NCBI RefSeq assembly: GCF_058153355.1
Contig: NZ_CM177019.1
DNA: 64,000 bases
Strand: one strand, 5' to 3'
The position numbers and the translations under genes were made by a program. Under the pieces are notes generated by a model. That model made no database searches, was not told the origin of the DNA, and saw nothing but the letters and a program-made list of their open reading frames with translations. This document shows, piece after piece, positions 1-22,000 of this stretch; position 1 is the stretch's first letter; each line of letters starts with the position of its first letter.

Positions 1-667
1 GGATAAAAGACTGCTCTTCGTCCAGAGCTTCCAGCTTGCGACGCAGGTTTTTAATGTGGCTGTCGATGGTGCGGTCAGTTACTACGCGGTAGTCGTCATA
101 AAGGTGGTTCAACAACTGCTCGCGGGAGAACACTTTTCCTGGTTCATGAGAGAGTGTTTTCAGCAGACGAAATTCCGCAGGCGTCAGGTCAAGCATTTTA
201 CCGCGCCATGAAGCCTGAAAACGACCTTCGTCGATAATCAACGGGCTTTCAGCATCCTGTTGCTGCAACTCGCGCTGCGGTTTGCAACGGCGCAAAATGG
301 TTTTGACGCGCGCTACCACTTCCCGTGGGCTGTACGGCTTGCAGATATAATCATCTGCGCCAATCTCCAGTCCGAGCAGGCGGTCTATCTCTTCGATTTT
401 TGCCGTCACCATCACGACAGGAACATCGGAAAAACGACGAATCTCCCGACACAACGTCAGGCCATCGGTGCCAGGGAGCATCAGATCCAACAGGATCAGA
501 TCCGGTGGTGTCTGGCGCACATATGGCAGTACCTGATCGCCGTGGCTGATAAGCGTCGGCGCATAGCTCGCAGCACGCAGATAATCAATAAGCAACTGCC
601 CCAGCTTCGGTTCATCTTCCACGATCAAAATACGTGGCGTGTTTTCGTCGATTGGTAACTCGGTCAT
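1..667 (-). CDS. baeR: Response regulator BaeR (OmpR family); 3' end lies beyond the window edge
   Basis: Reverse-complement translation from 667 reads [22 protein letters not shown] (receiver-domain N-terminus); ATGA overlap with the baeS stop at 664-667; no stop codon before position 1. Not in the ORF track because it is truncated. Confidence 0.9.
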
Positions 668-2067
668 ACTTCTCTCTGTAAATCCCGTTCCAGCGGTAAC
701 TCTACTGTAATGCTTACCCCGCCAAAAGGCGAATGAGCGGCAACAATGCGACCATTATGTGCTTCAACAATGTTAAGACAAATCGCTAGCCCCAAGCCGG
801 AACCGCCGCTGGCACGGTTGCGGGAACCTTCGGTGCGATAAAAACGCTCAAACAATTTTTGCAGTTGATCGTCACTAACGCCCGGTGCACTGTCGGCAAA
901 GGTCAGACGCACCGTTTTGTCATGTTGCTCGGCAGAGATATGCAGGCTGCCGCTGCTGTCGGTATAGCGCAGGCTGTTTTCCAGTAAGTTATTGAACAAC
1001 TGCATTAAACGATCGCGATCGCCAAATACGGTAATGCTGTCTGGCAGGGAAAATTGCAGTTTCAGCCCGCGGCTGGCGAAACGCTCACGAAATGCGCCAC
1101 CCGCGACTTCCAGTAGCGGGATCAGATCCACCGACGATTTCTGGTAGGCGAGAGCGCCTTCATCAGACATCGACAATTGATGAAGATCATCCACCAGTTT
1201 GGTCAGTGTACCGACCTCTGCCTGTAAAGAAGCCACCGTCTCCGGCGTGAATTTACGCACGCCATCCTGAATAGCTTCCAGTTCGCCGCGCAGTACTGCT
1301 AAAGGTGTGCGCAGCTCGTGGGAGATATCGGCCATAAAATCGCGGCGCATCTGTTGGTTTTTCTCCAGCGTGCTGGCGAGCTGGTTGAAGTCTTGCGCCA
1401 GTTTGCCCAATTCATCTTCACTGGTGGGCGTCACGCGAGTAGTGAAATCGCCCGCTGCCAGTTTGTGTGTACCGTCCACCAGTCGTTTGACCGGAGCCAG
1501 CAAACCGCGCGCCAGTGGGAATGTCGCCAGCGCCGCTAACAAGGTAGATAAAGCGACAATCAGCCAACTGGTTTGCCTCTGTTGTCTGTCAAAATTGATA
1601 TCGGTATTGCGGGTCAGTCGTTCAACAGGGGAGGCGATCACCGCACCCACTTCCGCCCCATTGACCATAATGGGCCGCCGTGTGCCGTCTGGTGGAATCG
1701 GTGCTCGCGGGCCAACCAGCACTTTGTTGTTTTGATCAACCACCCAGAATTGCGTGCGCCAACCGTGTGGCGGCATACCGGGGCCGGGCTTATCTTCGTT
1801 GTTATCATGCTCCAGCGAACGTAGGATCTGAAATACAAAGCGATCGTTATTACGCAGGAAGCGCCAGTTCCCGTGCTGGGCGTACTGCTCACCAAGCGCA
1901 TCGCCGAGCATTTGCAGCCGTTGTTCATTTCCATGCTTGATGTAATCGATAAAGCCGCGCTCAAAACTGATACGTACCGCCCAGTGCATCGTGATCAATA
2001 AGACAATGCAGGTGGCGAAAATCGCCAGAAACAGTTTGCCGGTAATACCGGGTCGCCAGAATTTCAT
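664..2067 (-). CDS. baeS: Sensor histidine kinase BaeS
   Basis: 467-aa ORF; N-terminal TM segment, HAMP-like region, H-box [12 protein letters not shown]-terminal ATPase G-boxes (GGSGLGLAI); start overlaps the mdtD stop. Confidence 0.93.
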
Positions 2068-3479
2068 TGCGCGCTCCTTTTTCGCCGCGAAATAGCGACA
2101 TTTTGATGCGTATCGTTCGGCACTCTGGCAAAGACAAACGCCGGAAGGGCGATGATAAACGCCATGCTAAGCCAGGTGTACATAAAGACGGTTTGTGTGG
2201 TGCTGCTGTCTACACTGACATGCTGTGAACCAAAAAGCCCCAGCAACAGCCCGGCGATGGTGACGCCGATACTCATCGATAATTGCATAATCATCGACAG
2301 CAGGCTGTTGCCGCTGCTCGCCAGATTGTCTGGTAGATCTTTCAGCGTCAGGGTGTTCATGGAGGAGAAACGTGTCGAGTTGACCATTCCTTGTAAAAAC
2401 AGGACGAACGGCAAAACGTAGTACCAGCCCAGCAGAGCGGTAGTCATAAACAGCAGGGTGACCAGCGACAGGCCCAGCGTGGTCGCCACCAGTACCCGAC
2501 GGTAGCCAAAGCGATTCACCACCTGCACTACAATTCGCTTCATTCCCATGCTGCCGAGCACCATCGGGATCATCATCAGTCCGGCATGAAACGGTGAGAA
2601 GCCAAGGCCAATCTGTAAGAAAACCGGTGTCATAAAGGGCAACATGCCACTGCCGATACGTCCGGCAAAGCTCCCCGCCAGGCCCAGCGAAAAGGTACGA
2701 GTGCGGAACAGTTTCAGACTGAAAAGAGCGCGGTTGTTATTTCTGGCGTGCAGCAGATAAAGCACCAGTGCTACCACGCCAATTGCTGCCAGTCCGGCAA
2801 TCGCCAGCGGTGAAAGTCCCGTGCCTTTACTGCCATCCAGCGCCAGAGTTAATACCGCCATGCCAACCGCCAGCAATAAAAAGCCGGAGAGATCGAAGCG
2901 CCGCGTCTGCATGGTGTAGTTTGGCATTAACATCAGCGTGGCGATCGCACCGATAATCCCTACCGGTATGTTGATCAAAAAGATCCAATGCCAGGACGCG
3001 TATTCCACCAGCAGGCCGCCGAGCGCCGGACCCAATAGTGGGCCGACCTGACCGGGCAGCGTAACAAAGGTCATCGCCGCCATATATTGCTCGCGCGGTA
3101 CAATTTTCATCACCGTAAGCCTGCCGACCGGCACCATCATCGCGCCGCCAACGCCCTGTAACGCGCGTGCCAGCAACAGTTCGTTTAGCGTGGCAGAAAG
3201 CGCGCAAAACAGCGAACCGAGGGTAAACAGCACGATGGCGGTAAAGAAGATATTGCGTACGCCGACTTTGTCCGCCAGCCAGCCGCTGGCGGGCAGCATC
3301 ACCGCCACGGTCAGCACATAAGATACGATGACCATGTGCATATGTAGCGGACTTTCCCCAAGGCTTTGCGCCATTGAGGGAAGGGCGGTGTTTACGATGG
3401 TGGTGTCCAGCGACTGCATAAAGAAGCCGAAAGCCACAATCCACAATTGCCAGCGGGTGCTGTCGGGAAGATCTGTCAT
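2064..3479 (-). CDS. mdtD: MFS-family efflux transporter MdtD
   Basis: 471-aa highly hydrophobic ORF with many predicted TM helices; position between mdtC and baeS matches the mdtABCD-baeSR operon. Confidence 0.9.
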
Positions 3480-6400
3480 TTACTCGGTTACCGTTTGTTT
3501 AGGTTTACGCGAAAAACGCAGCCGCAGACGGTCAAAAAAGAGATACACCACTGGCGTGGTATACAGCGTCAGAAGCTGGCTCATTACCAGACCTCCGACA
3601 ATGGTGATCCCCAGGGGTTGGCGCAGCTCCGAGCCGTCACCGCCCGCCAATACCAACGGCAGCGCACCAAACAGCGCCGCCAGGGTAGTCATCATAATCG
3701 GGCGAAAACGCAGCAGACAGGCCTGGAAAATAGCTTCCTGCGGCGTCAGGTTACCGTGCCGTTGGGCTTCGAGCGCAAAATCGACCATCATTATGGCGTT
3801 TTTCTTCACGATGCCGATTAATAGCATGATCCCTATCAGGGCGATTAGGCTGAACGGGGCATTGAATAGCTCCAGCGCCAACAGCGCTCCAACGCCCGCC
3901 GAGGGCAGGGTGGAGAGAATCGTGAGCGGATGTACGTAACTCTCGTAAAGGATACCCAGTACGATATACACCGTGGCGATGGCTGCGATAATCAGGATCA
4001 CCTGCGAGTTCATCGTCTCCTGGAATACCTGCGCTGTTCCGGCAAAACTGCCGCGCACCGTCGAAGGCACACCTAGCTGGGTCATTGCGCGGTCAATCGC
4101 CGCACTGGCGTCCGAGAGCGATTTTCCGGTCGGCAAGTTGAACGAGATGGTCGAGGCCGCCGATAATCCCTGATGATTCACCGACAGCGGGGCATTCGCC
4201 GGTTGCCATTTAGCGAAATATGACAGCGGGATCGCTTTTCCTTCGTTATTAATGACGAACATTTTTTCCAGTGCACTGATGTCCTGGGTATAGCGCGGAT
4301 CCACTTCCATCACCACTTTATACTGGTTCATGGGCTGGTAAATGGTCGAGATTTGCCGCTGCCCGAAGGCGTTATTCAACAGGCTGTTGGCGGCCTGCAC
4401 GTCGATTCCCAGTCGTGCCATAGTGTCGCGGTCGTAAACCAGATTCATCTCCGCGCCGTTATCCTGCTGGTCGGAATTCACGTCCGCCAGTTCCGGTAAC
4501 GTTGCCAGTTTTTTGCGGATTTTCGGCTCCCATTCGCGCAGCGCCGCCAGGTCGTCGGAGAGCAACGTATACTGGTAACTGGCGTTCGACTGACGTCCGC
4601 CAACGCGAATATCCTGCACTGCCATCAGGAACAGATTCGCCCCCGGTTCTTTCGCCAGCTTCACCCGCAAACGGTCGATAATTTGCTGCGCCGTTTCGCT
4701 GCGTTCGTCGCGTGGCTTGAGGGTGATAAACATCATCCCACTGTTCACCCGCGAGCCACCGGTAAAGCCGGTGACATTATCCACTGCCGGATCGTCACGG
4801 ATAATTTTCATGAAATCCTGCAATTTGCCGCGCATCGCCTGAAACGAAATACTCTGATCCGCCTGTATCCCGCCCATCAGTACACCAGTGTCCTGCTCCG
4901 GGAAGAAGGTTTTCGGGATCGAGATATACAGCCAGATATTCAAAGCAATGGTGCCAAGCAGCACCACGCCCACCAGACGGGTATGATTGAGCACCCATTT
5001 CAGCGACTTGCCGTAGCCTTGTTGCAGAGCAACCAACATGCGACCAAAACCACGCAGACGCTTTTGCTCGCGCGGCTTGCTGGCTTTTAGCATCCAGCCG
5101 CACATCATCGGCGTTAACGTCAGGGAAACCAGCAACGAAATACCAATGGCGACAGAAAGCGTCACGGCAAATTCGCGTAACAGTCGGCCCGGCAATCCGC
5201 CCATCAGCAGCAGCGGCAGGAACACCGCCACCAGTGACAGACTCATCGACAGTACCGTAAAGCCGACTTCGCGAGTACCTTGCAGCGCGGCTTGCAACGG
5301 TTTCATTCCCGCTTCCAGATGACGGGCAATGTTTTCCAGCACCACGATGGCATCATCCACCACAAAGCCTGTAGCGATGGTCAGCGCCATTAACGAAAGA
5401 TTATTGAGACTGAAACCGCACAGGTACATCGCCGCAAACGTACCAATCAGCGAAACCGGCACCGCAACGGCGGGAATAATAGTGGCGCGACCCGAGCGCA
5501 GGAATAAAAAGACCACCAGAATCACCAGCGCCACCGAGATAATCAGCGTTTGCTCGACTTCCTCCAGCGAGGCGCGAATGGTGGGAGAGCGATCCTGGGC
5601 AATTTGCAGATCAATCGCCGCCGGAATGGTCTCCTGCAACTCCGGTAATTTTGCCCGGATGCTGTCTACCGTCTGGATAATATTGGCTTCCGGCAGCTTG
5701 CGGATCATCAGCAAAATAGCCGGTTTAGCGTTGGTCATCCCGGCGTTGCGCACATCCTGCACCGAATCGGTCACCGTCGCCACATCACCCAGACGAACCG
5801 CGCCGCCGTTGTTGTAATGAACAATCAGCGGTTGGTATTCGGCTGCGGTTTTTAGTTCATCGTTAGTCTGGATCTGCCAGCGGTGAGTGCCATCTTCCAG
5901 CGCGCCCTGCGGTTTACGCACGTTGGCATTGCTGATGGCAGTGCGCACATCGTCCAGTGACACGCCCTGATTAAACAGCGCCTGCGGATTCAGCCCAACG
6001 CGCACGGCGGGCAGTGAGCTGCCGCCAACATCGACATCACCGACACCGTCGATTTGCGAAATCGTCGGAGCCAACTGCGTCGAGGCAAAATCGTACAGTT
6101 CACCCTGCGAATAAGTATCGGATGTCAGCGTGAGGATCATAATTGGCGCATCCGACGGGTTCGCTTTGCGATAGGTCGGATGGCTGGGCATCCCACTGGG
6201 CAGCAAACTTTGTGCAGCGTTGATCGCCGCCTGCACATCGCGCGCTGCGCCGTTGATATCCCGGTCAAAATCAAACTGCAAAATAATACGCGTGCTGCCA
6301 AGCGAACTGCTGGAGGTCATTTCACTGACCCCGGCGATGCGCCCAAGTGAGCGCTCCAGCGGCGTGGCGACGGAAGACGCCATTGTCTCCGGTGATGCAC

Positions 6401-6557
6401 CGGGCAGCGAGGCGCTGACCATAATCACCGGAAAATCGACCTGCGGCAGCGGGGCGACCGGCAGCATACGGAAACCCAGTATGCCGCACAGGGTAATGGC
6501 GACCGACAGTAAAATCGTCGCCACCGGGCGGTAAATGAAGAGGGCAAAAAACTTCAC
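3480..6557 (-). CDS. mdtC: RND multidrug efflux pump subunit MdtC
   Basis: 1025-aa ORF with RND/AcrB-like architecture (TM segments alternating with large periplasmic loops); immediately follows mdtB. Confidence 0.94.
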
Positions 6558-9500
6558 TTACGCCTCCTCTTCATGACGGACAAAGCGACTTTTGGTCCAC
6601 AATGCCAGGCGGTCGAATAGCAGATAAATCACAGGCGTGGTAAACAGCGTCAGCACCTGGCTAACAATCAGGCCGCCGACCATGCCGATGCCTAACGGAC
6701 GACGTAGTTCCGCGCCGACTCCGGTGCTCAACATCAGCGGCAGCGCGCCAAGCAGTGCCGCCAGAGTGGTCATCAGGATCGGACGAAAACGCAGCAAACA
6801 GGCCTGGTAAATTGCATCGCGCGGCGACATGCCTTGCTCGCGCTCGGCAGCCAGCGCGAAGTCGATCATCATGATGGCGTTTTTCTTCACAATACCGATC
6901 AGCAAAATAATGCCGATGATTGCGATCACATCCAGTTCGCTACCGGCAATCAGCAACGCCAGCAGTGCGCCAACACCTGCCGTTGGCAACGTCGAGAGAA
7001 TGGTGATCGGGTGAATAAAGCTCTCGTACAGAATGCCGAGCACGATGTACATCGCCACCACTGCCGCGACAATCAGCCAGACAGTGCTGCCCAATGCCGA
7101 CTGGAAGGCGAGGGGGCTACCCTGGAACTGCGTGGTGATATCCACCGGCAGATTCAGCGTCTTTTCGGTGTCCATAATCGCCTGCACCGCATCGCCCAGC
7201 GAATAGTTATCTGGCACGTTAAAGGAGATGGTCGTTACCGGGAACTGATCCAGATGGTTGATGGAGAGCGGCGCAAAACGCTGCTCAATTTTGGCAATTG
7301 AGCTTAGCGGCACCACGCCACCGTCGCTGCTGGTCAGGCGAATGGTATCCAGCGCCGCAAGCCCTGGGGTATTTTCGGTATTGTGCTCCAGCACCACGCG
7401 ATACTGGTTAGCCTGAGTATAAATGGTGGAAATCAGTCGCTGACCAAACGCGTTGTACAGGGCGTTATCGACGTCCGCCATGCTGATCCCCAGACGGCTG
7501 GCGCTGTCGCGATCAACATTGACATACGCCAGCAGCCCTTTGTCCTGCCAGTCACTGGAGACATCAGAAAGCTGTGGCAGCTGCTGGAGTTTTTCCACGA
7601 GTTGCGGAACCCAGGTGCTGAGCGCATCCAGCGATGTGGCCTGCAAGGTAAACTGGTACTGGGTGCGGCTGACCTGAGTATCAATCGTCAGGTCCTGCGT
7701 TGGTTGCAGGAAGAGATCGACGCCCGGCACTTTATCTACTGCTGTTTGCAAACGGGCGATGACTTTTTGCACCCGATCATCACGTTCATCCAACGGTTTG
7801 AGGTTGATCTGTAAACGCGCACTGTTCAGCGACGGGTTAGTGCCATCAACGCCAACAAATGAGGTCAGGCTTTGCACCGCCGGATCCTGCAATATCACGT
7901 CCGCGACCTGGCGTTGCCGCTGGGCCATATTGGCAAAGGAGCTGGATTGCGGTGCCTGCAAGGTGCCCTGAATAATGCCGTTGTCCTGTACCGGGAAGAA
8001 ACCTTTCGGAATGAACACCCACAATAGAACGCTCAGCAGCAGCGTGCTGAGCGCCACGCTTAAGGTCAGCCACGGATGATTCAGCACTTTCGCCAGTCCA
8101 CGACCATAGGCGGCAATTATCCTGTCGAACATTTTTTCCGAGGCCCGGGAGAAGCGGTTCTGTTTACGCAGCGACTCCTGGCTGAGCATCCGCGCGCACA
8201 TCATCGGTGTCAGGGTCAGCGACACCACGGCTGAGATCAAAATCGCTACCGCCAGGGTAATGGCAAATTCGCGGAACAGTCGCCCGACGATATCGCCCAT
8301 AAACAGCAGCGGGATCAGCACTGCAATCAGAGAGAAAGTCAGTGAGATAATGGTAAAACCGATTTCACCTGCGCCCTTGAGCGCCGCTGCCAGTGGTTTT
8401 TCGCCTTTTTCGATATAGCGGGAAATGTTTTCGATCACCACGATGGCGTCGTCGACAACGAATCCGGTGGCGATGGTTAACGCCATCAGCGTCAGGTTAT
8501 TGATTGAAAAATCGAGAAACACCATAACCGCAAAGGTGCCAATTAACGACAGCGGCACGGCGACGCCAGGAATGATAGTCGCCGGAATATTGCGCAAAAA
8601 AAGGTAGATAATCATGACTACCAGCGCGATAGCCATCATCAATTCAAACTGGGTATCGTTGACCGATGCGCGGATATTGGTGGTACGGTCAGAAAGTACC
8701 GTCACCTTCACCGATTTCGGCAGACTCTCGGTGAGCTGTGGCAGCATCTGCCGGATGCTGTCGGCGGTGGAGATAATGTTAGCACCAGGCTGGCGCTGAA
8801 CATTCATCACAATGGCCTGTTCTTTATTTGCCCACGCCCCAAGCCAGCTATTTTCTGCACCTTGCTCTACGGTTGCGACATCGCCCAGACGAATCGGCGC
8901 GCCGTTCTGGTAGGCAATAATTAGCTGGCGATACTCTTCGGCGGATTGCATCTGGTCGTTCGCGGAAAGGGTGACCGCGCGGGAAGGGCCGTCGAGGCTA
9001 CCTTTAGCCGAGTTAACGTTAGCGCCGGTAATGGCGGTGCGCACGGTTTCGCTGGTCAGGCCGAGGGCGGCAATCGCCTGGGCGTTAAGTTTGACGCGAA
9101 CAGCCGGACGCTGACCGCCGGAAAGCGTCACCAGCCCGACGCCGGAAATCTGCGAGATCTTCTGCGCGACGCGGGTTTCCACCATATCTTCCACTTGCGT
9201 CATCGGCATGGCGGTTGAGGTAACAGCGAGCGTCATGATCGGCGGATCTGCCGGGTTCACTTTGCTGTATACCGGAGGGTTAGGCAGATCGCTCGGCAAC
9301 AGGTTAGTGGCGGCGTTAATCGCGGCCTGCACTTCCTGCTCGGCGACATCCAGCGGCAATGTTAGCTGGAATTGCAAGGTGATAACTGACGCGCCGCCGG
9401 AACTTTGCGATGACATCTGTTTCAGGCCAGACATCTGCCCAAATTGGCGTTCGAGCGGCGCAGTAACGGCGGAGGTCATGACATCCGGGCTGGCACCTGG

Positions 9501-9680
9501 GTAGAGGGTGACCACCTGAATGGTTGGATAGTCCACTTCCGGCAGCGCCGAAACGGGCAGGGCGCGATAACCGATAATCCCGGCGAGTAAGATCGCCACC
9601 ATCAGCAGCGTGGTGGCAACAGGACGCATAATAAACAGGCGCGACGGACCGCCTGTGCTGCTCGGGGGTAACACCTGCAT
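6558..9680 (-). CDS. mdtB: RND multidrug efflux pump subunit MdtB
   Basis: 1040-aa RND-type ORF, paralogous to the adjacent MdtC ORF (shared motifs such as IMMAFFFT and [10 protein letters not shown]). Confidence 0.94.
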
Positions 9681-10927
9681 CAGGAGCGTGCTCCTTTTTT
9701 AGCGTATTCGCGGCTGGTGGCTTTCTCTTCCGAAGTGGTGGCGCTTTGAGCTTCAACCACTTCCACTTTCGCCCCTTCGGTCAGACGATCAATGCCATCC
9801 GTCACTACGCGGTCGCCTGCAGAAATACCTGCGCGGATCACCACTTTCTGACTGTCCTGAATGCCCGGCGTCACCAGATGTTTGCTGACCTTGTTTTCGC
9901 TATTCAGCACCCAGACAAAATGGCCTTCGTTGCCCATTTGCAGGGCGGCGGTGGGGATCACCACGGCGTTTTGTTCGGTGTCGACTAACATGCGCGCGTT
10001 AACAAACTGATTGGGAAACAGCGCATCATCCTGATTATTAAAGCGTGCTTTCACTTTAATCGTACCGGTAGTGGCATCGATTTGGTTATCGAGACTTAAC
10101 AGCGTGCCTTCACTTAATTTCTTCGAGTTGGTGCGATCCCAGGCTTCAACAACCAGCGGTTTTCCGGCTTTTTGCGCCTGTACTACGGTAGTGATATCGC
10201 TTTCCGGCAGGGTAAAGAGCAAATCGATAGGATGCGTCTGGGTGATCACCACAATTCCGGTGGTATCACCACTGGAGATTTGGTTACCAACATCAACCTG
10301 CTTGAGACCAACGCGACCATCGACTGGTGCGGTGATGCGGCTCCAGTCGAGTTGCAGCTGCGCACTGGCGACGCTCGCTTCATCAGCCTTAATGGTACCT
10401 TCGGTTTCACTGACCAGCGCCTGTTGGGCATCCAATTCCTGACGGGAGACGAGATTGGTTTTTGCCAGTTGCTGATAACGCGCTAAATCACGGCGGGCGT
10501 TGGCTAGTGTGGCTTTATCTTTTGCCAGTTGCCCCTGAGCTTGTGCTAATGCAACTTTGAACTGGCTGGGGTCAATTTCTGCCAGTAAATCGCCTGCTTT
10601 GACCTGCTGACCCTCCTGGAAATGTAATGCCATCAGTTGACCATCTACGCGACTGCGCACCGTAACGGTGTTAGCAGCGGTAATCGTACCAAGCCCGGTG
10701 AGGTAACGCGGAACCGCCTGTTCCACGGCAGTTGCTGCCTGAACCGGGGCCAATGGGCCGGAACGCATACCACGGCGGCCACCGGCTGGCGACTGCTGTG
10801 CTTGCTTCGTCGCACCTGGCGCTGCGCTCTGGGATTCATTGCGGCCTTGCCAGAACCAGAAAGCGGCGATGGCGGCGATAACCACCACGATTACGATTAC
10901 CCAACGGGATTTATAACTGCCTTTCAT
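9680..10927 (-). CDS. mdtA: Membrane fusion (periplasmic adaptor) protein MdtA
   Basis: Chosen start is the internal ATG at 10925-10927, giving 415 aa beginning [26 protein letters not shown] (N-terminal membrane anchor). The 464-aa ORF-track form is an in-frame upstream extension. Coiled-coil/lipoyl region typical of HlyD-family adaptors. Confidence 0.88.
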
Positions 10928-10980
10928 CGTTAAGAGTTTCTCTTCCTGAAACGTTTCGCGGAATGATACTAGTGTAGCCA

Positions 10981-10998
10981 GCCAATAAGGGAGAAAAA
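10981..10998 (-). promoter_or_regulatory. Candidate BaeR-binding box upstream of mdtA
   Basis: Minus-strand sequence TTTTTCTCCCTTATTGGC, 54-71 nt upstream of the mdtA ATG; close to the BaeR box consensus TTTTTCTCCATDATTGGC as I recall it (one mismatch). Confidence 0.4.
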
Positions 10999-11159
10999 TG
11001 GAGGAATTATGAAACACTGTCGGGAATCGTCTGAATGACGGGCACTTTTGCGAGCACGCATCCAGTAATAACACAGGAAACTATTTTATCTACGCGTTAG
11101 CGATAGACTGCATTAAGGGCAAAAGGAGGTAGGCCGACGATTTCAGCGGGACGCTGAAA

Positions 11160-11297
11160 CGGGAAAGCCCCTCCCGAGGAAGGGGCCTTAAATAAGGAAA
11201 GGGTCATGATGAAGTGGATCATCATCGTGGTGCTCTTAGTCGTTAGCTACCCAGCTTACTAAGACTACCAGGGCGGGGGAAACCCCGCTCAACCCTC
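11160..11297 (-). ncRNA. sib: Predicted Sib-type antisense RNA (antitoxin) covering ibs copy 1; ends approximate
   Basis: Minus-strand promoter-like TTGACA (plus 11328-11333), 17-nt spacer, TATTTT (plus 11305-11310); minus-strand hairpin GCCCCTTCCTCGGGAGGGGC followed by a T-rich tract near 11165-11195 as terminator; transcript fully overlaps the ibs ORF. Confidence 0.45.
11206..11262 (+). CDS. ibs: Ibs-family type I toxin, 18 aa (MMKWIIIVVLLVVSYPAY), repeat copy 1
   Basis: Short hydrophobic ORF with an MMK start and PAY C-terminus, preceded by an AAGGAAAGGG Shine-Dalgarno-like sequence; matches the Ibs toxin pattern. Too short for the ORF track. Confidence 0.75.
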   Translation: MMKWIIIVVLLVVSYPAY

Positions 11298-11487
11298 ACT
11301 CCTGAAAATATGCCTTCACGGTCAGAATGTCAATCCGCAGGCTTTGCAGTCTGCGATCCTGCCAGCAAATATTCTTTGCGAGTCGTTACGCAATAATCAC
11401 AGATGAAACTATTTTATCTAAGCGTTAGCGATAGACTGCATTCAGGGCAAAAGGAGGTAGGCCGACGATTTCAGCGGGACGCTGAAA

Positions 11488-11625
11488 CGGGAAAGCCCCT
11501 CCCGAGGAAGGGGCCTTAAATAAGGAAAGGGTCATGATGAAGATACTCATCATCGTGGTGCTCTTAGTCATTAGCTTACCGGCTTACTAAGACTACCAGG
11601 GCGGGGGAAACCCCGCTCTACCCTC
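11488..11625 (-). ncRNA. sib: Predicted Sib-type antisense RNA covering ibs copy 2; ends approximate
   Basis: Same architecture as copy 1, shifted 328 bp; -10 element is TACTTT. Confidence 0.42.
11534..11590 (+). CDS. ibs: Ibs-family type I toxin, 18 aa (MMKILIIVVLLVISLPAY), repeat copy 2
   Basis: Same features as copy 1, exactly 328 bp downstream. Confidence 0.75.
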   Translation: MMKILIIVVLLVISLPAY

Positions 11626-11815
11626 ACTCCTGAAAGTATGCCTTCACAATCAGATTGTCAATCCGCAGGCTTTGTAGTCTGCGATCCTGCCAGCAAATAT
11701 TCTTTGCGAGACGTTACGCAATAATCACATGTGAAACTATTTTATCTGCAAGTTAGCGATAGACTGCTTGCATGGCGAAAGGAGGTAGGCCGCCGATTTC
11801 AGCGGGACGCTGAAA

Positions 11816-11953
11816 CGGGAAAGCCCCTCCCGAGGAAGGGGCCTTAAATAAGGAAAGGGTCATGATGAAGCTACTCATCATCGTGGTGCTCTTAGTTATT
11901 AGCTGGCCAGCTTACTAAGACTACCAGGGCGGGGGAAACCCCGCTCTACCCTC
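11816..11953 (-). ncRNA. sib: Predicted Sib-type antisense RNA covering ibs copy 3; ends approximate
   Basis: Same architecture; TTGACA retained, -10 degenerate (TAACTT), so expression is less certain. Confidence 0.38.
11862..11918 (+). CDS. ibs: Ibs-family type I toxin, 18 aa (MMKLLIIVVLLVISWPAY), repeat copy 3
   Basis: Same features as copy 1, 656 bp downstream. Confidence 0.75.
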   Translation: MMKLLIIVVLLVISWPAY

Positions 11954-12135
11954 ACTCCTGAAGTTATGTTACTCCACCCTTATTGTCAATCTGTAAGTCC
12001 ACGTTCTTGCGGGGCGAATAGCAAAACCCTCTGCGCTTATGGGCCGAATTCTGAAAGTTGCTTTGCCTGCTCTTATTTCATTATTGCAGTCGGTATGATA
12101 CCGGACCTCAATAATTCTCTAAGAAAGGATTTCTT

Positions 12136-18682: not shown

Positions 18683-21600
18683 TCAGTTAATCGCGAAATA
18701 ACTGCTATTCACCAGCAAATCCAGCGGTTGGGCATCGGCAATCACATCGCCATAAATCAGATCGACGCCGATGCCAGAAAGCGTATCCATCACTAAGGGT
18801 AAAACAACTGGCCCGGCGATAGTCTTCACCCCGAGTCGCTGAGCGTGCCCCTGAATAATCGTAATCAGCATCTCATCCATCAAATTACCCTGCACGCTGG
18901 CGCATAGCTCACCGTCAAGTAGCAGGTAATCTGCCATATTCGCTTTCAGCGTGTTGAAAATTTGCAGATCGCGACCCACCTGGCTGAGCACTATCCGACA
19001 TCCCGCCAGCCGTAGTTTTTGCACGCTTTCTGCGTGATCGAAAACCGCTTCTGCCGGAATAATCAGATGTAATAACCGTGGTGGTAGAGGGTTATTTTCC
19101 AGTTGCTCAAGCAGTTCATTCACCAGCGCGGCGCTACTCAAGCCGGCAACAGAAAGGGGGAGGGCGATGCTTAAGCCTTTACTGGCAATCGCTTTTGCGG
19201 TCTGCTGGAAAAATTCATGGAGTACCCGGCGGTCAAGAGCATGGTTAAGCGCCGGATCACCGAAGCTACGACGAAATGTTTGTTCATCAAAAATCTCGCC
19301 TTCGCAACCCCAGAGTTTTAGTGATATCAACCACAAATTACGCGCTTCCGGGATCCGTGGCGAAGCGACGCCGTGGGCGATCATCATCAACTGATTCTCT
19401 TTAATCATCCGCCACTGTTCATCAATCGACATCGCCGCCCGTTCGCTATGTGCGTCAGCTTGCTGCGGTTCGTAAACTGTCACCCGGCCGCGGCCACCAT
19501 TTTTGGAGGCATAACAGGCGATGTCAGCCTGCGACATCACTTCAACCGCCTGATGATTGTTGTCATCAATCAAGGTAATCCCGGCACTGGCACCTACCCG
19601 ATGTACACGTCCTTCCCATATAAAGTGATAGTCATTCACGGCGCTGATAATGCGTGTAGCGATAAAACGCGCACTTTCGACATTACAATCTGGCAGCAGC
19701 AGACCAAATTCATCGCCACCGAGTCGCGCAAGTACGTCGCTGGAGCGCAGCATACTCAGCATCAATGACGCCAGTTCGCGCAACAAAGCGTCGCCAGCGG
19801 CGTGTCCGGCGCTGTCATTCACCGCTTTAAAGCGATCAAGATCGATAAACACCAGGGCATGTCGCTGATGTGTACTGTTTACCGTTTGCAGCAGGATGCG
19901 TAGTTGCTTCTCAAAACTGGCGCGATTGGCGAGATGCGTCAGTGCATCATGGGAGGCGCTGTAGCTCAGCTGGCGCAGCATTTTGCGTGATTCGGTGACG
20001 TCCTGAATCACCAGAACCGAGCCTATATTGCTGCCGTCCAGAGTACTTAACGGTGTAATACTGTAATGCACGTCGTAGCTGCCGCCGCTCCGGCAGTGCA
20101 ACACCACATCTTGTTCAATCGCAGAACGTGAGGTGTCGGCACTGTAAATGTTCTCCATTAATGGCCCGTTGTCGCCAAAAGTAATATGCAACACCGTCAG
20201 GAGCGGAACACCTAACGCTTCTTCCTGCGTCCAGCCGCTCATCTTCTCCGCCACTGGATTCATAAAGGTAATTTTCATCGCCATGTCAATACAGACCACG
20301 GCTTCGCCGATGGAGTCCAGCGTAATATGCAGGCGCTCTTTTTCCTGAAACAGTGCCTCGTTAAGCTGTTTCACTTCAGTCATATCCATATTGATGCCAA
20401 GCAGGCGTTCAACTTCGCCTTCTTTATTCAGTACCCGGTTAGCGAGGGCGCGGATATGGCGAATACCGTCTTTCACGGTAATGCGAAATTCCAGTTTAAA
20501 GGGAGAGCGCGATTGCAATGAATCGCGAATCACTTTTTCGGCGTGCTGGCGATCTTCCGGCAGCACGCACTCGTACCACACCTGCCAGTTCGGTTTGATA
20601 TGCGGAGGAATTTCATACAGCTCGAACATCCGCTTATCCCAGCTAAAAATATTCGGCTTTAGCTCCCACTCCCAGATGCCAATCCCGCCCGCTTCGTTAG
20701 CCAGCGTGATGCGCTCCATCAGTTGCTGGTTCACCTGTTCGGTGCGTTTTAGCTCGTTAATGTCTTCAATCTGAGCGATAAAATAGAGCGGCGTACCATC
20801 GGTGTGGCGCACTAGTGAGACGGCAAGCAACGCCCAGACAACATCGCCATTGCGGTTGTAGTAGCGTTTTTCCATTGAATAGGTGTTTATTTCACCGCTT
20901 ATCAGCTTTTCAACCTGTTGCAGATCTTTATTGAGATCCTCCGGCCAGGTCAGTTGCTGAAAGGTGAGTCCGCGCAGTTCTTCCTGACTGTAACCGAGAA
21001 ACTGGCAGAGCGCTTTGTTGGATTGCAGCCATTGCCCCTCGGTGCCCACTAATGCCATGCCGATGGCGGAATATTCCATCGCGTTCCGAAAACGGGTTTC
21101 GCTTTCGGAAATGTGTTTGCGTTCCGCACGAAAGGCATACATCACCATCGTCATGATGTTGGCGGGCAGCAGGATCAGTAAAAACGGTAGCCACGGCATA
21201 TGGCTCATCAGGTACGTCCGCGGCGTAGCAAGCAGGGAGGGATCCGCGGCCATCATCAGCGACACCATCATCACCGTGGTAAGGAAAATCAAAAAGGCTT
21301 CCATTCGTGGCAGGCGCACGGCGCTCCACATCAGCAGCACAATAATGAAAGTAAAAGGCCACGGTAGATACAGCATCGAAAGCCAGCTTAACGTCAGTGT
21401 GATGGCTAACGTGAGCAGTGACTCAAAAAGCAACCTTGGGTTGCGATGGCGCAGCAGATAGTGTGGTTTAAATAACAATCCCAGCGGCACCAGTGCCAGG
21501 GCGCCGATGGATTCTGACAGTACCCATATCAAAAATGCCCTGAGAGGATCGTCTCCGGGCGTCAGCAGGACAACCAGAACACCCCCTAACAGAGGTGGAA

Positions 21601-22000
21601 CAATGGCGCTGCCGAATGCCAGACGCAGCCAGTCAGCCAGATTTTGCAATGGGTTATACCACGGCAGCAATTTACGCAGTAGCACTGCCCCGACCACGGC
21701 TTCAACAATATTGATGGTCGTCCAGGTCATGTTCAGCGAGCTGGTGGAAAAAAGCAGGATGGATGCGGCGATATTTCCCAGCGAGCAGCTCAGCGCTATT
21801 CCCGGCCACATGCGCCCGGCATGGCGATAAAACGCCACCATCATGATGGACGTCGGGAACCACAGTGGGGCGAGTTGGGTGCCAAACTGCGAAAGCTCAA
21901 GCGAGAAAAGGGTAAAGATAAACGAGACTAAACCTAAACTGACCAGGTGAAGCAGCGGGTGGGGCAGGGCAATTAATACATGCTGTGATTGTTTGCTCAT
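18683..22000 (-). CDS. dgcE: Diguanylate cyclase DgcE (YegE): membrane MASE1-like region, PAS domains, GGDEF, degenerate EAL
   Basis: 1105-aa ORF; hydrophobic N-terminal third; GGDEF motif present (ARLGGDEFGLL); C-terminal EAL-like region. Confidence 0.9.
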   Translation of the reverse strand: MSKQSQHVLIALPHPLLHLVSLGLVSFIFTLFSLELSQFGTQLAPLWFPTSIMMVAFYRHAGRMWPGIALSCSLGNIAASILLFSTSSLNMTWTTINIVEAVVGAVLLRKLLPWYNPLQNLADWLRLAFGSAIVPPLLGGVLVVLLTPGDDPLRAFLIWVLSESIGALALVPLGLLFKPHYLLRHRNPRLLFESLLTLAITLTLSWLSMLYLPWPFTFIIVLLMWSAVRLPRMEAFLIFLTTVMMVSLMMAADPSLLATPRTYLMSHMPWLPFLLILLPANIMTMVMYAFRAERKHISESETRFRNAMEYSAIGMALVGTEGQWLQSNKALCQFLGYSQEELRGLTFQQLTWPEDLNKDLQQVEKLISGEINTYSMEKRYYNRNGDVVWALLAVSLVRHTDGTPLYFIAQIEDINELKRTEQVNQQLMERITLANEAGGIGIWEWELKPNIFSWDKRMFELYEIPPHIKPNWQVWYECVLPEDRQHAEKVIRDSLQSRSPFKLEFRITVKDGIRHIRALANRVLNKEGEVERLLGINMDMTEVKQLNEALFQEKERLHITLDSIGEAVVCIDMAMKITFMNPVAEKMSGWTQEEALGVPLLTVLHITFGDNGPLMENIYSADTSRSAIEQDVVLHCRSGGSYDVHYSITPLSTLDGSNIGSVLVIQDVTESRKMLRQLSYSASHDALTHLANRASFEKQLRILLQTVNSTHQRHALVFIDLDRFKAVNDSAGHAAGDALLRELASLMLSMLRSSDVLARLGGDEFGLLLPDCNVESARFIATRIISAVNDYHFIWEGRVHRVGASAGITLIDDNNHQAVEVMSQADIACYASKNGGRGRVTVYEPQQADAHSERAAMSIDEQWRMIKENQLMMIAHGVASPRIPEARNLWLISLKLWGCEGEIFDEQTFRRSFGDPALNHALDRRVLHEFFQQTAKAIASKGLSIALPLSVAGLSSAALVNELLEQLENNPLPPRLLHLIIPAEAVFDHAESVQKLRLAGCRIVLSQVGRDLQIFNTLKANMADYLLLDGELCASVQGNLMDEMLITIIQGHAQRLGVKTIAGPVVLPLVMDTLSGIGVDLIYGDVIADAQPLDLLVNSSYFAIN

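What the first reader, a model, noticed from the sequence alone, without database searches (positions are those of the whole stretch)
10928..11075. BaeR-box-like site in the mdtA promoter region
TTTTTCTCCCTTATTGGC (minus strand, 10981-10998) lies 54-71 nt upstream of the mdtA start and resembles the BaeR recognition sequence, consistent with autoregulation of mdtABCD-baeSR by the BaeSR system encoded at the 3' end of the same operon.
Basis: partly seen in the sequence, partly recalled or inferred. Interest (0 to 1): 0.2.

Follow-up and report, generated by a model that had tools for sequence, protein, structure and literature searches.

The report
Known BaeR box at mdtA promoter
This is the already-described DNA site through which the envelope-stress regulator BaeR switches on the mdtABCD-baeSR drug-efflux operon (and so its own gene) in E. 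coli; it is ordinary, with one refinement: across 79 related species the best-conserved part of the operator lies about 10 bases upstream of the 18 bases that were flagged.

Summary
TTTTTCTCCCTTATTGGC lies at 10998..10981 on the minus strand, 54-71 nt upstream of the mdtA ATG (10927). It has one mismatch to the published BaeR consensus. It is base-for-base the E. coli K-12 mdtA site, one of the three sites that fit that consensus.

Published K-12 BaeR ChIP-exo puts one of its two strongest peaks over the identical sequence. Deleting baeR lowers mdtA-to-baeS expression by 3.4-4.6 log2 units (about 10- to 25-fold) under inducing stress. The window carries mdtA-mdtB-mdtC-mdtD-baeS-baeR with abutting or overlapping genes; baeR is cut by the window edge.

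The refinement is my inference. The 18-mer is only part of the operator. Upstream regions of mdtA from 79 Enterobacteriaceae species show a nearly invariant block, TTTCATAATTCCTCCATTTTT (11014..10994, identity 0.94), and an invariant -10 block (10977..10962). The 3' 12 nt of the 18-mer average only 0.49 identity.

In E. coli I read three phased half-sites at 11- and 10-bp spacing (GTTTCATAA, CCTCCATTT, TCTCCCTTA). They overlap a poor -35, which suggests PhoB-like activation.

Novelty: already known. Interest: low.

The parts
10981..10998 (-).
   Evidence: one mismatch to the consensus; identical to the K-12 mdtA site. Across 79 Enterobacteriaceae the mean identity is 0.64, and 0.49 for the 3' 12 nt.
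10986..10994 (-). Half-site HS3, TCTCCCTTA (2 mismatches to TCTNCANAA), promoter-proximal
   Evidence: The core CTCCC is kept in only 14 of 65 distinct orthologous sequences, those of Escherichia and Citrobacter.
10996..11004 (-). Half-site HS2, CCTCCATTT (core CTCCA), the family-wide anchor
   Evidence: The core is CTCCA in 60 of 65 and CTTCA in 5 of 65 distinct sequences, so all fit CTNCA. It lies 10 bp upstream of HS3.
11007..11015 (-). Half-site HS1, GTTTCATAA (2 mismatches to TCTNCANAA)
   Evidence: The core is TTCAT in 44 of 65 and TCCAT in 15 of 65 distinct sequences. It lies 11 bp upstream of HS2. TTCATAAT plus CTNCA is shared with the spy distal site that carries a BaeR ChIP-exo peak.
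10994..11014 (-). Nearly invariant block TTTCATAATTCCTCCATTTTT
   Evidence: Mean identity 0.94 across 79 species, against 0.37 for the far-upstream background.
10976..11012 (.). Projection of K-12 BaeR ChIP-exo peak_5 (2153931-2153967)
   Evidence: PMC7657598 Data Set S2. The coordinate map rests on a gap-free alignment. The sequence is TCATAATTCCTCCATTTTTCTCCCTTATTGGCTGGCT.
10945..10971 (.). Projection of K-12 BaeR ChIP-exo peak_6 (2153972-2153998). I infer it marks the RNA polymerase / open-complex region.
   Evidence: It starts exactly at TAGTAT. The spy core-promoter peak_1 has the analogous position.
10962..10977 (-). Invariant -10 block CTACACTAGTATCATT. The candidate -10 hexamers are TAGTAT (10971..10966) and TATCAT (10968..10963). 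The inferred transcription start is near 10959-10956.
   Evidence: Mean identity 0.93 across 79 species. The spacing from CTCCA to TAGTAT is fixed at 32 nt. The transcription start was not mapped here.
11015..11037 (-). Moderately conserved upstream extension (TCATTCAGACGATTCCCGACAGT), function unassigned
   Evidence: Mean identity 0.72. It contains the -35-like TTCAGA of a sigma70-like hit.
9680..10927 (-). mdtA (415 codons)
   Evidence: NF008589 MdtA/MuxA equivalog, 722.8 bits; annotated mdtA in E. coli.
6558..9680 (-). mdtB
   Evidence: NF007798, 2237.6 bits.
3480..6557 (-). mdtC
   Evidence: NF007905, 2208.6 bits.
2064..3479 (-). mdtD (iceT)
   Evidence: NF007799, 966.3 bits.
664..2067 (-). 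baeS
   Evidence: NF007837, 932 bits.
1..667 (-). baeR, cut by the window edge (222 of 240 codons)
   Evidence: NF007982, 408.2 bits. PDB 4b09 BaeR, E=1.2e-143; 218/222 identical to K-12, with the DNA-binding domain identical up to residue 213.

Best explanation
The flagged 18-mer is the known BaeR operator of the mdtABCD-baeSR promoter. It is identical to the site in E. coli K-12.

Proposed mechanism: envelope stress activates the kinase BaeS, which phosphorylates BaeR, an OmpR/PhoB-family winged-helix response regulator. BaeR then binds head-to-tail to phased half-sites of the TCTNCANAA / CTNCA type. These are HS1 (11015-11007), HS2 (11004-10996) and HS3 (10994-10986), spaced 11 and 10 bp apart, plus the 3' ATTGGC. 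The array overlaps the position of a very poor -35 element, just upstream of an invariant -10 (TAGTAT/TATCAT at 10971-10963). BaeR would therefore recruit RNA polymerase in a PhoB-like (class II) manner. Because baeS and baeR are the last genes of the same tightly packed transcription unit, activation is a positive autoregulatory loop.

Shown by sequence or published data: the identity of the sequence, in vivo BaeR occupancy in K-12, BaeR-dependent expression, the operon structure and the conservation pattern.

Inferred: the decomposition into half-sites, the identity of the -10 hexamer and transcription start, and the class II contact.
For: (1) The site is present and is the only <=1-mismatch consensus hit in 64 kb.

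(2) The 18-mer is identical to the K-12 mdtA site. With the spy and acrD sites it gives the published consensus.

(3) K-12 BaeR ChIP-exo peaks 5 and 6 are the two strongest of the 21 reported. They project onto 11012-10976 and 10971-10945. Peak 5 is centred on the HS2/HS3 junction.

(4) A baeR knockout lowers mdtA, mdtB, mdtC, mdtD and baeS by 3.4-4.6 log2 units, and only under inducing stress.

(5) All six operon genes are identified and abut or overlap. BaeR is 98% identical to K-12 over the 222 residues present and matches the solved BaeR structure 4b09.

(6) Conservation across 79 Enterobacteriaceae mdtA loci: block 11014-10994 has identity 0.94, the -10 block 0.93 and the background 0.37. 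CTNCA at HS2 is kept in 65 of 65 distinct sequences, at a fixed 32 nt from TAGTAT.

(7) The spy distal site under BaeR ChIP-exo peak_2 reads TTCATAATCTCTGCAAAA. It has the same TTCATAAT-N-CTNCA layout as HS1-HS2, with two TCTNCANAA units 11 bp apart.

(8) The -35 position matches TTGACA in only 1-3 of 6 bases (read from the sequence), as expected for an activator-dependent promoter.

(9) A related RND-pump regulator, DzrR, footprints on two CTCCAT repeats 11 bp apart (PMC10052836).

(10) An independent profile-building study lengthened the BaeR site model from 20 to 27 nt (PMC4888284).
Against: No binding or transcription experiment exists for this particular strain. All functional data are carried over from K-12 on the basis of sequence identity.

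The original footprint and transcription-start papers (Baranova & Nikaido 2002; Nishino 2005; Hirakawa 2005; Yamamoto 2008) are not in the held library. The exact protected bases and the transcription start could not be checked.

Each half-site is degenerate, with 2-3 mismatches to a 7-specified-base motif, and matches of similar quality occur elsewhere in the same 130 bp. The three-half-site reading therefore rests on phasing and conservation, not on motif score.

The 3' 12 nt of the 18-mer are poorly conserved outside Escherichia and Citrobacter (0.49). TTGGC is kept in only 3 of 65 distinct sequences.

In K-12 spy, the ChIP-exo peaks do not fall on the canonical 18-mer.
Confidence: 0.9

Rival explanations
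1. The functional, ancestral BaeR site at mdtA is the upstream tandem pair HS1-HS2 (11015-10996). The 3' two-thirds of the flagged 18-mer (CTCCCTTATTGGC) would be a lineage-specific accessory, or dispensable, so the reader's coordinates mostly miss the essential contacts.
For: Identity is 0.94 for 11014-10994 but 0.49 for 10992-10981 across 79 species.

Citrobacter sp. Awk 4 keeps the complete 18-mer-type box at spy (TTTTTCTTCATAATTGGC) but has TTATTTTCCCTTGTTAGA at the mdtA 18-mer position. It still retains TTTCATAATTCCTCCAT there.

The spy ChIP-exo peak sits on a TTCATAAT-CTNCA site and not on the spy 18-mer.
Against: In E. coli, ChIP-exo peak_5 is centred on the HS2/HS3 junction, and its left edge cuts into HS1.

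Three unrelated E. coli promoters share TTTTTCTCC-N3-ATTGGC almost exactly, far beyond chance. ATTGGC is conserved at spy in Salmonella and Citrobacter. The 3' part is therefore probably read by BaeR where it is present.
Confidence: 0.25
2. The conserved block is, wholly or partly, a CpxR site. On the plus strand it reads GAAAAATGGAGGAAT, which resembles GTAAA-N5-GTAAA. CpxR has been reported to co-regulate mdtA.
For: There is a 3-mismatch match at 10993-11007 (+). In most other genera the sequence reads GAAAAATGGAGGAAA, which is 2 mismatches (from the consensus). The literature summarised in PMC6375597 and PMC10052836 says Cpx also regulates mdtA.
Against: K-12 CpxR ChIP-exo lists no peak at mdtA, whereas BaeR gives its two strongest peaks there. 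Both GTAAA units lack the T. From memory, Hirakawa 2005 reported that CpxR and BaeR bind different sites, but that paper is not held.
Confidence: 0.06
3. Conservation of HS1 and of 11037-11015 reflects a second, upstream sigma70 promoter (TTCAGA-18-CATAAT, 11035..11006) and not BaeR contacts.
For: The promoter scan gives a 9/12 match. TTCAGA and CATA(A/T)T are moderately to highly conserved.
Against: Two promoter-like hits were found in 700 bp, against 0.7 expected by chance. A transcription start near 10999 would put the BaeR site downstream of +1, which conflicts with strong BaeR-dependent activation. ChIP-exo peak_6 marks the downstream -10 region.
Confidence: 0.1
4. The 18-mer is a chance resemblance with no regulatory role.
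For: None beyond the general caveat that consensus matches are not proof of function.
Against: About 3e-4 such matches are expected by chance in the window (my arithmetic; shuffles). The sequence is identical to an experimentally occupied K-12 site and near-invariant in 5279 of 5417 E. coli records.
Confidence: 0.01

Closest known systems
BaeR box of the E. coli K-12 mdtA (yegM) promoter (consensus TTTTTCTCCATDATTGGC, attributed to Nishino et al. 2005 in PMC3799227 and PMC3915751)
   Same: The 18-mer is identical and lies at the same distance from the mdtA ATG. The flanks are identical from -95 to the ATG. The operon downstream is the same.
   Different: Nothing differs in the site itself. The host is a less common E. 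coli lineage: the 600-bp region is >=99% identical in only 4 records. It carries three copies of the upstream Ibs/Sib module where K-12 has two.
Distal BaeR site of the spy promoter (TCTNCANAA units, attributed to Yamamoto et al. 2008 in PMC3799227)
   Same: It has the same TTCATAAT-N-CTNCA layout, with two units 11 bp apart, and is occupied by BaeR in ChIP-exo. HS1-HS2 at mdtA match it at 13 of 20 positions without gaps (my count).
   Different: The spy site lies about 200 bp upstream of the gene and far from the core promoter. The mdtA array abuts or overlaps the -35 position.
PhoB pho box / class II activation by OmpR-PhoB family regulators (established knowledge)
   Same: Both have tandem direct repeats at about one helical turn. 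The repeats replace a poor -35 immediately upstream of the -10. The regulator has a receiver domain plus a winged helix.
   Different: The half-site sequence differs: CTNCA-type here, CTGTCAT for PhoB. Contact with sigma70 region 4 has not been shown for BaeR. E. coli mdtA appears to have three half-sites where the pho box has an even number.
DzrR box (and, from memory, the AdeR direct repeat) controlling RND efflux operons
   Same: The DzrR box has two CTCCAT direct repeats 11 bp apart upstream of an RND pump operon, bound by an OmpR-family regulator (PMC10052836).
   Different: The regulator is a different orthologue (AdeR-like, reported to act independently of phosphorylation), from different genera, and is not encoded in the pump operon.

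Membership tests
BaeR box (18-mer type) | Match to TTTTTCTCCATDATTGGC | tested here: met
   17 of 18 positions match, and it is the only <=1-mismatch hit in the window. It is identical to the K-12 mdtA member.
BaeR box (18-mer type) | Located in the promoter region of a BaeR-regulon gene | tested here: met
   It lies 54-71 nt upstream of the mdtA ATG. MdtA is identified by NF008589.
BaeR box (18-mer type) | Occupied by BaeR in vivo or in vitro | tested here: met
   This was met only by projection. K-12 ChIP-exo peak_5 at 2153931-2153967 covers the identical sequence. Binding in this strain cannot be tested with these tools.
BaeR box (18-mer type) | Downstream genes depend on BaeR for induction | tested here: met
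   Published K-12 RNA-seq: in a baeR knockout under ethanol, mdtA is -4.0 and baeS -4.6 log2. This was not measured in this strain.
BaeR box (18-mer type) | Conserved at orthologous promoters | tested here: inconclusive
   The site is invariant within E. coli. The 3' 12 nt average only 0.49 identity across Enterobacteriaceae, and 49 of 65 distinct sequences have >=6 mismatches. The conserved core lies 10 bp upstream.
OmpR/PhoB-family tandem-repeat operator (class II activator site) | Two or more similar half-sites phased at 10-11 bp | tested here: met
   GTTTCATAA, CCTCCATTT and TCTCCCTTA start at 11015, 11004 and 10994. Each unit is degenerate (2-3 mismatches), so support comes from phasing plus conservation.
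OmpR/PhoB-family tandem-repeat operator (class II activator site) | Cognate regulator has a receiver domain plus a winged-helix DNA-binding domain | tested here: met
   BaeR matches equivalog NF007982. PhoB, OmpR and CpxR models appear as weaker hits. PDB 4b09 matches.
OmpR/PhoB-family tandem-repeat operator (class II activator site) | Site overlaps or abuts a weak -35, with a fixed distance to the -10 | tested here: inconclusive
   The 32-nt CTCCA-to-TAGTAT spacing is fixed in all genera, and the -35 position matches TTGACA in only 1-3 of 6 bases. However, the transcription start and -10 are inferred and were not mapped.
OmpR/PhoB-family tandem-repeat operator (class II activator site) | Direct activator-RNA polymerase contact | not testable with these tools
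   This needs in vitro transcription or structural work.
Autoregulated two-component operon | Regulator genes co-transcribed from the regulated promoter | tested here: met
   Genes abut or overlap by 1-4 nt from mdtA to baeR. baeS falls 4.6 log2 in the baeR knockout. PMC8308502 states that BaeSR positively regulates its own transcription. Internal promoters are not excluded.

The most novel reading that the evidence does not exclude
The family-wide BaeR anchor at mdtA would be the tandem T(T/C)CAT-N6-CTCCA block at 11014-10998. The textbook 18-mer consensus would then over-weight an Escherichia/Citrobacter-specific third half-site plus ATTGGC. On that reading, BaeR regulon predictions made with the 18-mer outside Escherichia miss the real sites, and a (TCTNCANAA)x2, 11-bp-spaced model should replace it.
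Probability: 0.35. Interest if true: 0.25.

Novelty: already known. Interest (0 to 1): 0.08.

Why it matters
The site has practical value for annotation. It marks the control point of an inducible RND multidrug/metal efflux pump and of the BaeSR envelope-stress system's positive feedback.

Nothing about it is new. The same sequence has been described, bound and functionally tested in E. coli K-12.

The only added value is comparative. The part of the operator conserved across Enterobacteriaceae is offset about 10 bp upstream of the canonical 18-mer. This matters mainly for people who scan other genera for BaeR targets with the E. coli consensus.

Tried and rejected
(1) I tried to read the primary papers for the footprint and transcription start. 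These were Baranova & Nikaido 2002 (PMC135214), Nishino 2005, Nishino 2007 (PMC2168627), Wang & Fierke (PMC3657296) and Thomason 2015 (PMC4288677). None is held. Text searches for an mdtA transcription start found nothing useful. The start therefore remains inferred.

(2) A sigma70 scan did not report the downstream promoter, because its -35 is too poor. It reported an upstream TTCAGA-18-CATAAT instead. I kept this only as a low-probability rival.

(3) A CpxR-box scan with fixed N5 spacing gave only 3-mismatch hits. CpxR ChIP-exo has no mdtA peak. I rejected CpxR as the main explanation.

(4) The second consensus hit, at 20148-20165, is intragenic on the opposite strand. I rejected it as chance.

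(5) The Spy homologue search returned almost only Escherichia, Salmonella and Citrobacter among the 120 proteins listed. The spy-promoter control therefore could not be extended to Klebsiella or Enterobacter.

(6) The Erwinia mdtABC paper contains no BaeR-site information.

Full report
**Observation**

On the minus strand the window reads ...CATAATTCCTCCATTTTTCTCCCTTATTGGCTGGCTACACTAGTATCATTCCGCGAAACGTTTCAGGAAGAGAAACTCTTAACGATGAAAGGC.... TTTTTCTCCCTTATTGGC occupies 10998..10981.

A scan with the published consensus TTTTTCTCCATDATTGGC finds it as the only hit with <=1 mismatch in 64 kb. At <=3 mismatches there are 2 hits against 0.28 expected. The other hit, at 20148-20165, lies inside a 1105-codon ORF on the opposite strand and is chance.

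**What it is**

The region is E. coli DNA. It matches 5419 of 5426 complete genomes and is annotated there as mdtA preceded by an Ibs-family toxin.

The K-12 MG1655 mdtA upstream region carries the identical 18-mer at 2153945-2153962. The two sequences align without gaps and are identical from 11021 down to the ATG.

The three classical K-12 sites are:
- mdtA: TTTTTCTCCCTTATTGGC
- spy: TTTTTCTCCATAATTGGC
- acrD: TTTTTCTCCACGATTGGC

These come, and together they give the consensus that later papers attribute to Nishino et al. 2005. The "one mismatch" is simply how the mdtA member itself departs from a consensus that it fits with the other two.

NCBIfam models identify the downstream ORFs as MdtA, MdtB, MdtC, MdtD, BaeS and BaeR. 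The genes abut or overlap by 1-4 nt. baeR runs off the left edge of the window, with 222 of 240 codons present. It is 218/222 identical to K-12 and matches PDB 4b09.

**Functional evidence (published, K-12)**

In PMC7657598 Data Set S2, BaeR ChIP-exo gives 21 peaks. The two with the highest signal-to-noise are upstream of mdtA: peak_5 at 2153931-2153967 (S/N 10.96) and peak_6 at 2153972-2153998 (S/N 14.99). Projected onto the window, these are 11012-10976 and 10971-10945.

Peak_5 encloses the 18-mer. Peak_6 starts exactly at TAGTAT and covers the -10 to about +15 region. I read peak_6 as the polymerase complex (inference), by analogy with spy peak_1, which covers the spy core promoter.

In a baeR knockout under 5% ethanol, log2 fold changes are mdtA -4.0, mdtB -3.8, mdtC -3.6, mdtD -3.35 and baeS -4.6. 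mdtA, mdtB, mdtC, mdtD and baeS are essentially unchanged without the inducer. [quoted passage not shown]

Its own refutation criterion, a footprint lying elsewhere, is not met.

**Anatomy beyond the 18-mer**

I collected mdtA loci from 80 species of Enterobacteriaceae and compared 79 upstream regions. Mean identity to the window by segment:

| Segment | Coordinates | Mean identity |
|---|---|---|
| Upstream block TTTCATAATTCCTCCATTTTT | 11014-10994 | 0.94 |
| -10 block CTA(A/C)ACTAGTATCATT | 10977-10962 | 0.93 |
| Upstream extension | 11037-11015 | 0.72 |
| Far-upstream background | 11056-11038 | 0.37 |
| 3' 12 nt of the 18-mer | 10992-10981 | 0.49 |

Among 65 distinct anchored sequences:
- The HS2 core is CTCCA in 60 and CTTCA in 5.
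- The HS1 core is TTCAT in 44 and TCCAT in 15.
- The HS3 core CTCCC is kept in 14.
- TTGGC is kept in 3.

The distance from CTCCA to TAGTAT is a constant 32 nt.

As a control, the spy promoters of Salmonella and two Citrobacter species keep the whole 18-mer-type box, including ATTGGC. Citrobacter sp. Awk 4 has lost it at mdtA but keeps TTTCATAATTCCTCCAT there.

In K-12 spy, the BaeR ChIP-exo peaks fall on the distal site TTCATAATCTCTGCAAAA and on the core promoter. They do not fall on the spy 18-mer. That distal site consists of two TCTNCANAA units 11 bp apart, the second published BaeR consensus. It has the same TTCATAAT-N-CTNCA layout as HS1-HS2 at mdtA.

**Mechanism proposed**

BaeR~P would bind phased half-sites HS1 (11015-11007), HS2 (11004-10996) and HS3 (10994-10986), plus ATTGGC. 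The offsets are 11 and 10 bp. The array overlaps a -35 position that matches TTGACA in only 1-3 of 6 bases, upstream of an invariant -10. This is the PhoB-like arrangement of OmpR-family activators (established knowledge).

HS2 is the universal anchor. The phylogenetic footprint favours HS1+HS2. I cannot decide between these, and all three half-sites may be used.

The related regulator DzrR footprints on two CTCCAT repeats 11 bp apart. A profile-building study lengthened the BaeR model from 20 to 27 nt. Both fit an operator longer than 18 nt.

**Rivals**

- A CpxR site on the opposite strand (GAAAAATGGAGGAAT, 3 mismatches) is unlikely. CpxR ChIP-exo shows no mdtA peak.
- An upstream sigma70-like TTCAGA-18-CATAAT could contribute to conservation of HS1 and of 11037-11015. 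It would place the BaeR site downstream of +1, which conflicts with strong activation.
- Chance is excluded.

**Limits**

The primary footprint and transcription-start papers are not held. The transcription start near 10959-10956 is inferred. Individual half-sites are weak motif matches.

**Verdict**

The feature is already known. Interest is low (0.08).

The only non-trivial addition is that the family-wide conserved core of the operator lies about 10 bp upstream of the canonical 18-mer.

Noticed in passing
window 11191-11989: There are three tandem copies of the Ibs/Sib type I toxin-antitoxin module. SIB_RNA lies on the minus strand at 11191-11333, 11519-11661 and 11847-11989. Each copy has an 18-codon Ibs ORF on the plus strand (11206-11262 MMKWIIIVVLLVVSYPAY; 11534-11590; 11862-11918). 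K-12 has only two copies at this locus (sibA/ibsA and sibB/ibsB). The three copies here match each other at 120-130 of 143 positions.
   Followed up: partly
window 1-667 (-): baeR is cut by the left edge of the window. 222 of 240 codons are present, and 218/222 are identical to K-12. The regulator gene the finding relies on is therefore incomplete in the window.
   Followed up: yes
window 11006-11037 (-): A sigma70-like TTCAGA-18-CATAAT (9/12 match) has its -10 inside half-site HS1. The stretch 11037-11015 is moderately conserved (0.72) across Enterobacteriaceae. Its function is unassigned. Candidates are extra BaeR half-sites, the reported CpxR site or a basal promoter.
   Followed up: partly
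L002 (K-12 spy upstream; NC_000913.3 1825677-1825843): In published K-12 ChIP-exo, BaeR peaks at spy lie on the distal TTCATAATCTCTGCAAAA site (1825823-1825843) and on the core promoter (1825677-1825711). They do not lie on the canonical spy 18-mer (1825764-1825781).
   Followed up: partly
window 20148-20165 (+): A 3-mismatch match to the BaeR consensus (ATGTTCTCCATTAATGGC) lies inside a 1105-codon ORF on the opposite strand (18683-22000), which looks like a PAS/GGDEF/EAL-type protein. It is a chance match.
   Followed up: yes
L088 (NZ_CP026085.1, labelled DH5alpha, 4.83 Mb): This record has two substitutions in the otherwise near-invariant mdtA promoter core: TTTTT>TTTGT in the T-run between HS2 and HS3, and TATCAT>TATCAC in one candidate -10 hexamer. 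If real, the second change would favour TAGTAT as the -10, or indicate a weakened promoter.
   Followed up: no
window 10937-10950 (-): The 5'-UTR block TTTCAGGA(A/T)GAGAA is strongly conserved across Enterobacteriaceae. The AGGA lies 15 nt before the ATG, which is far for a Shine-Dalgarno sequence. GAGA, with 9 nt between it and the ATG, is the more likely ribosome-binding element. The reason for the extended conservation is unknown.
   Followed up: no
window 10850-11450: The host is an uncommon E. coli lineage at this locus. Only 4 of about 5400 records are >=99% identical over 600 bp, and one is 100% identical (goat strain R32_14_1F). Most records are 90-95% identical. The divergence is concentrated in the Ibs/Sib part, not in the mdtA promoter.
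   Followed up: partly
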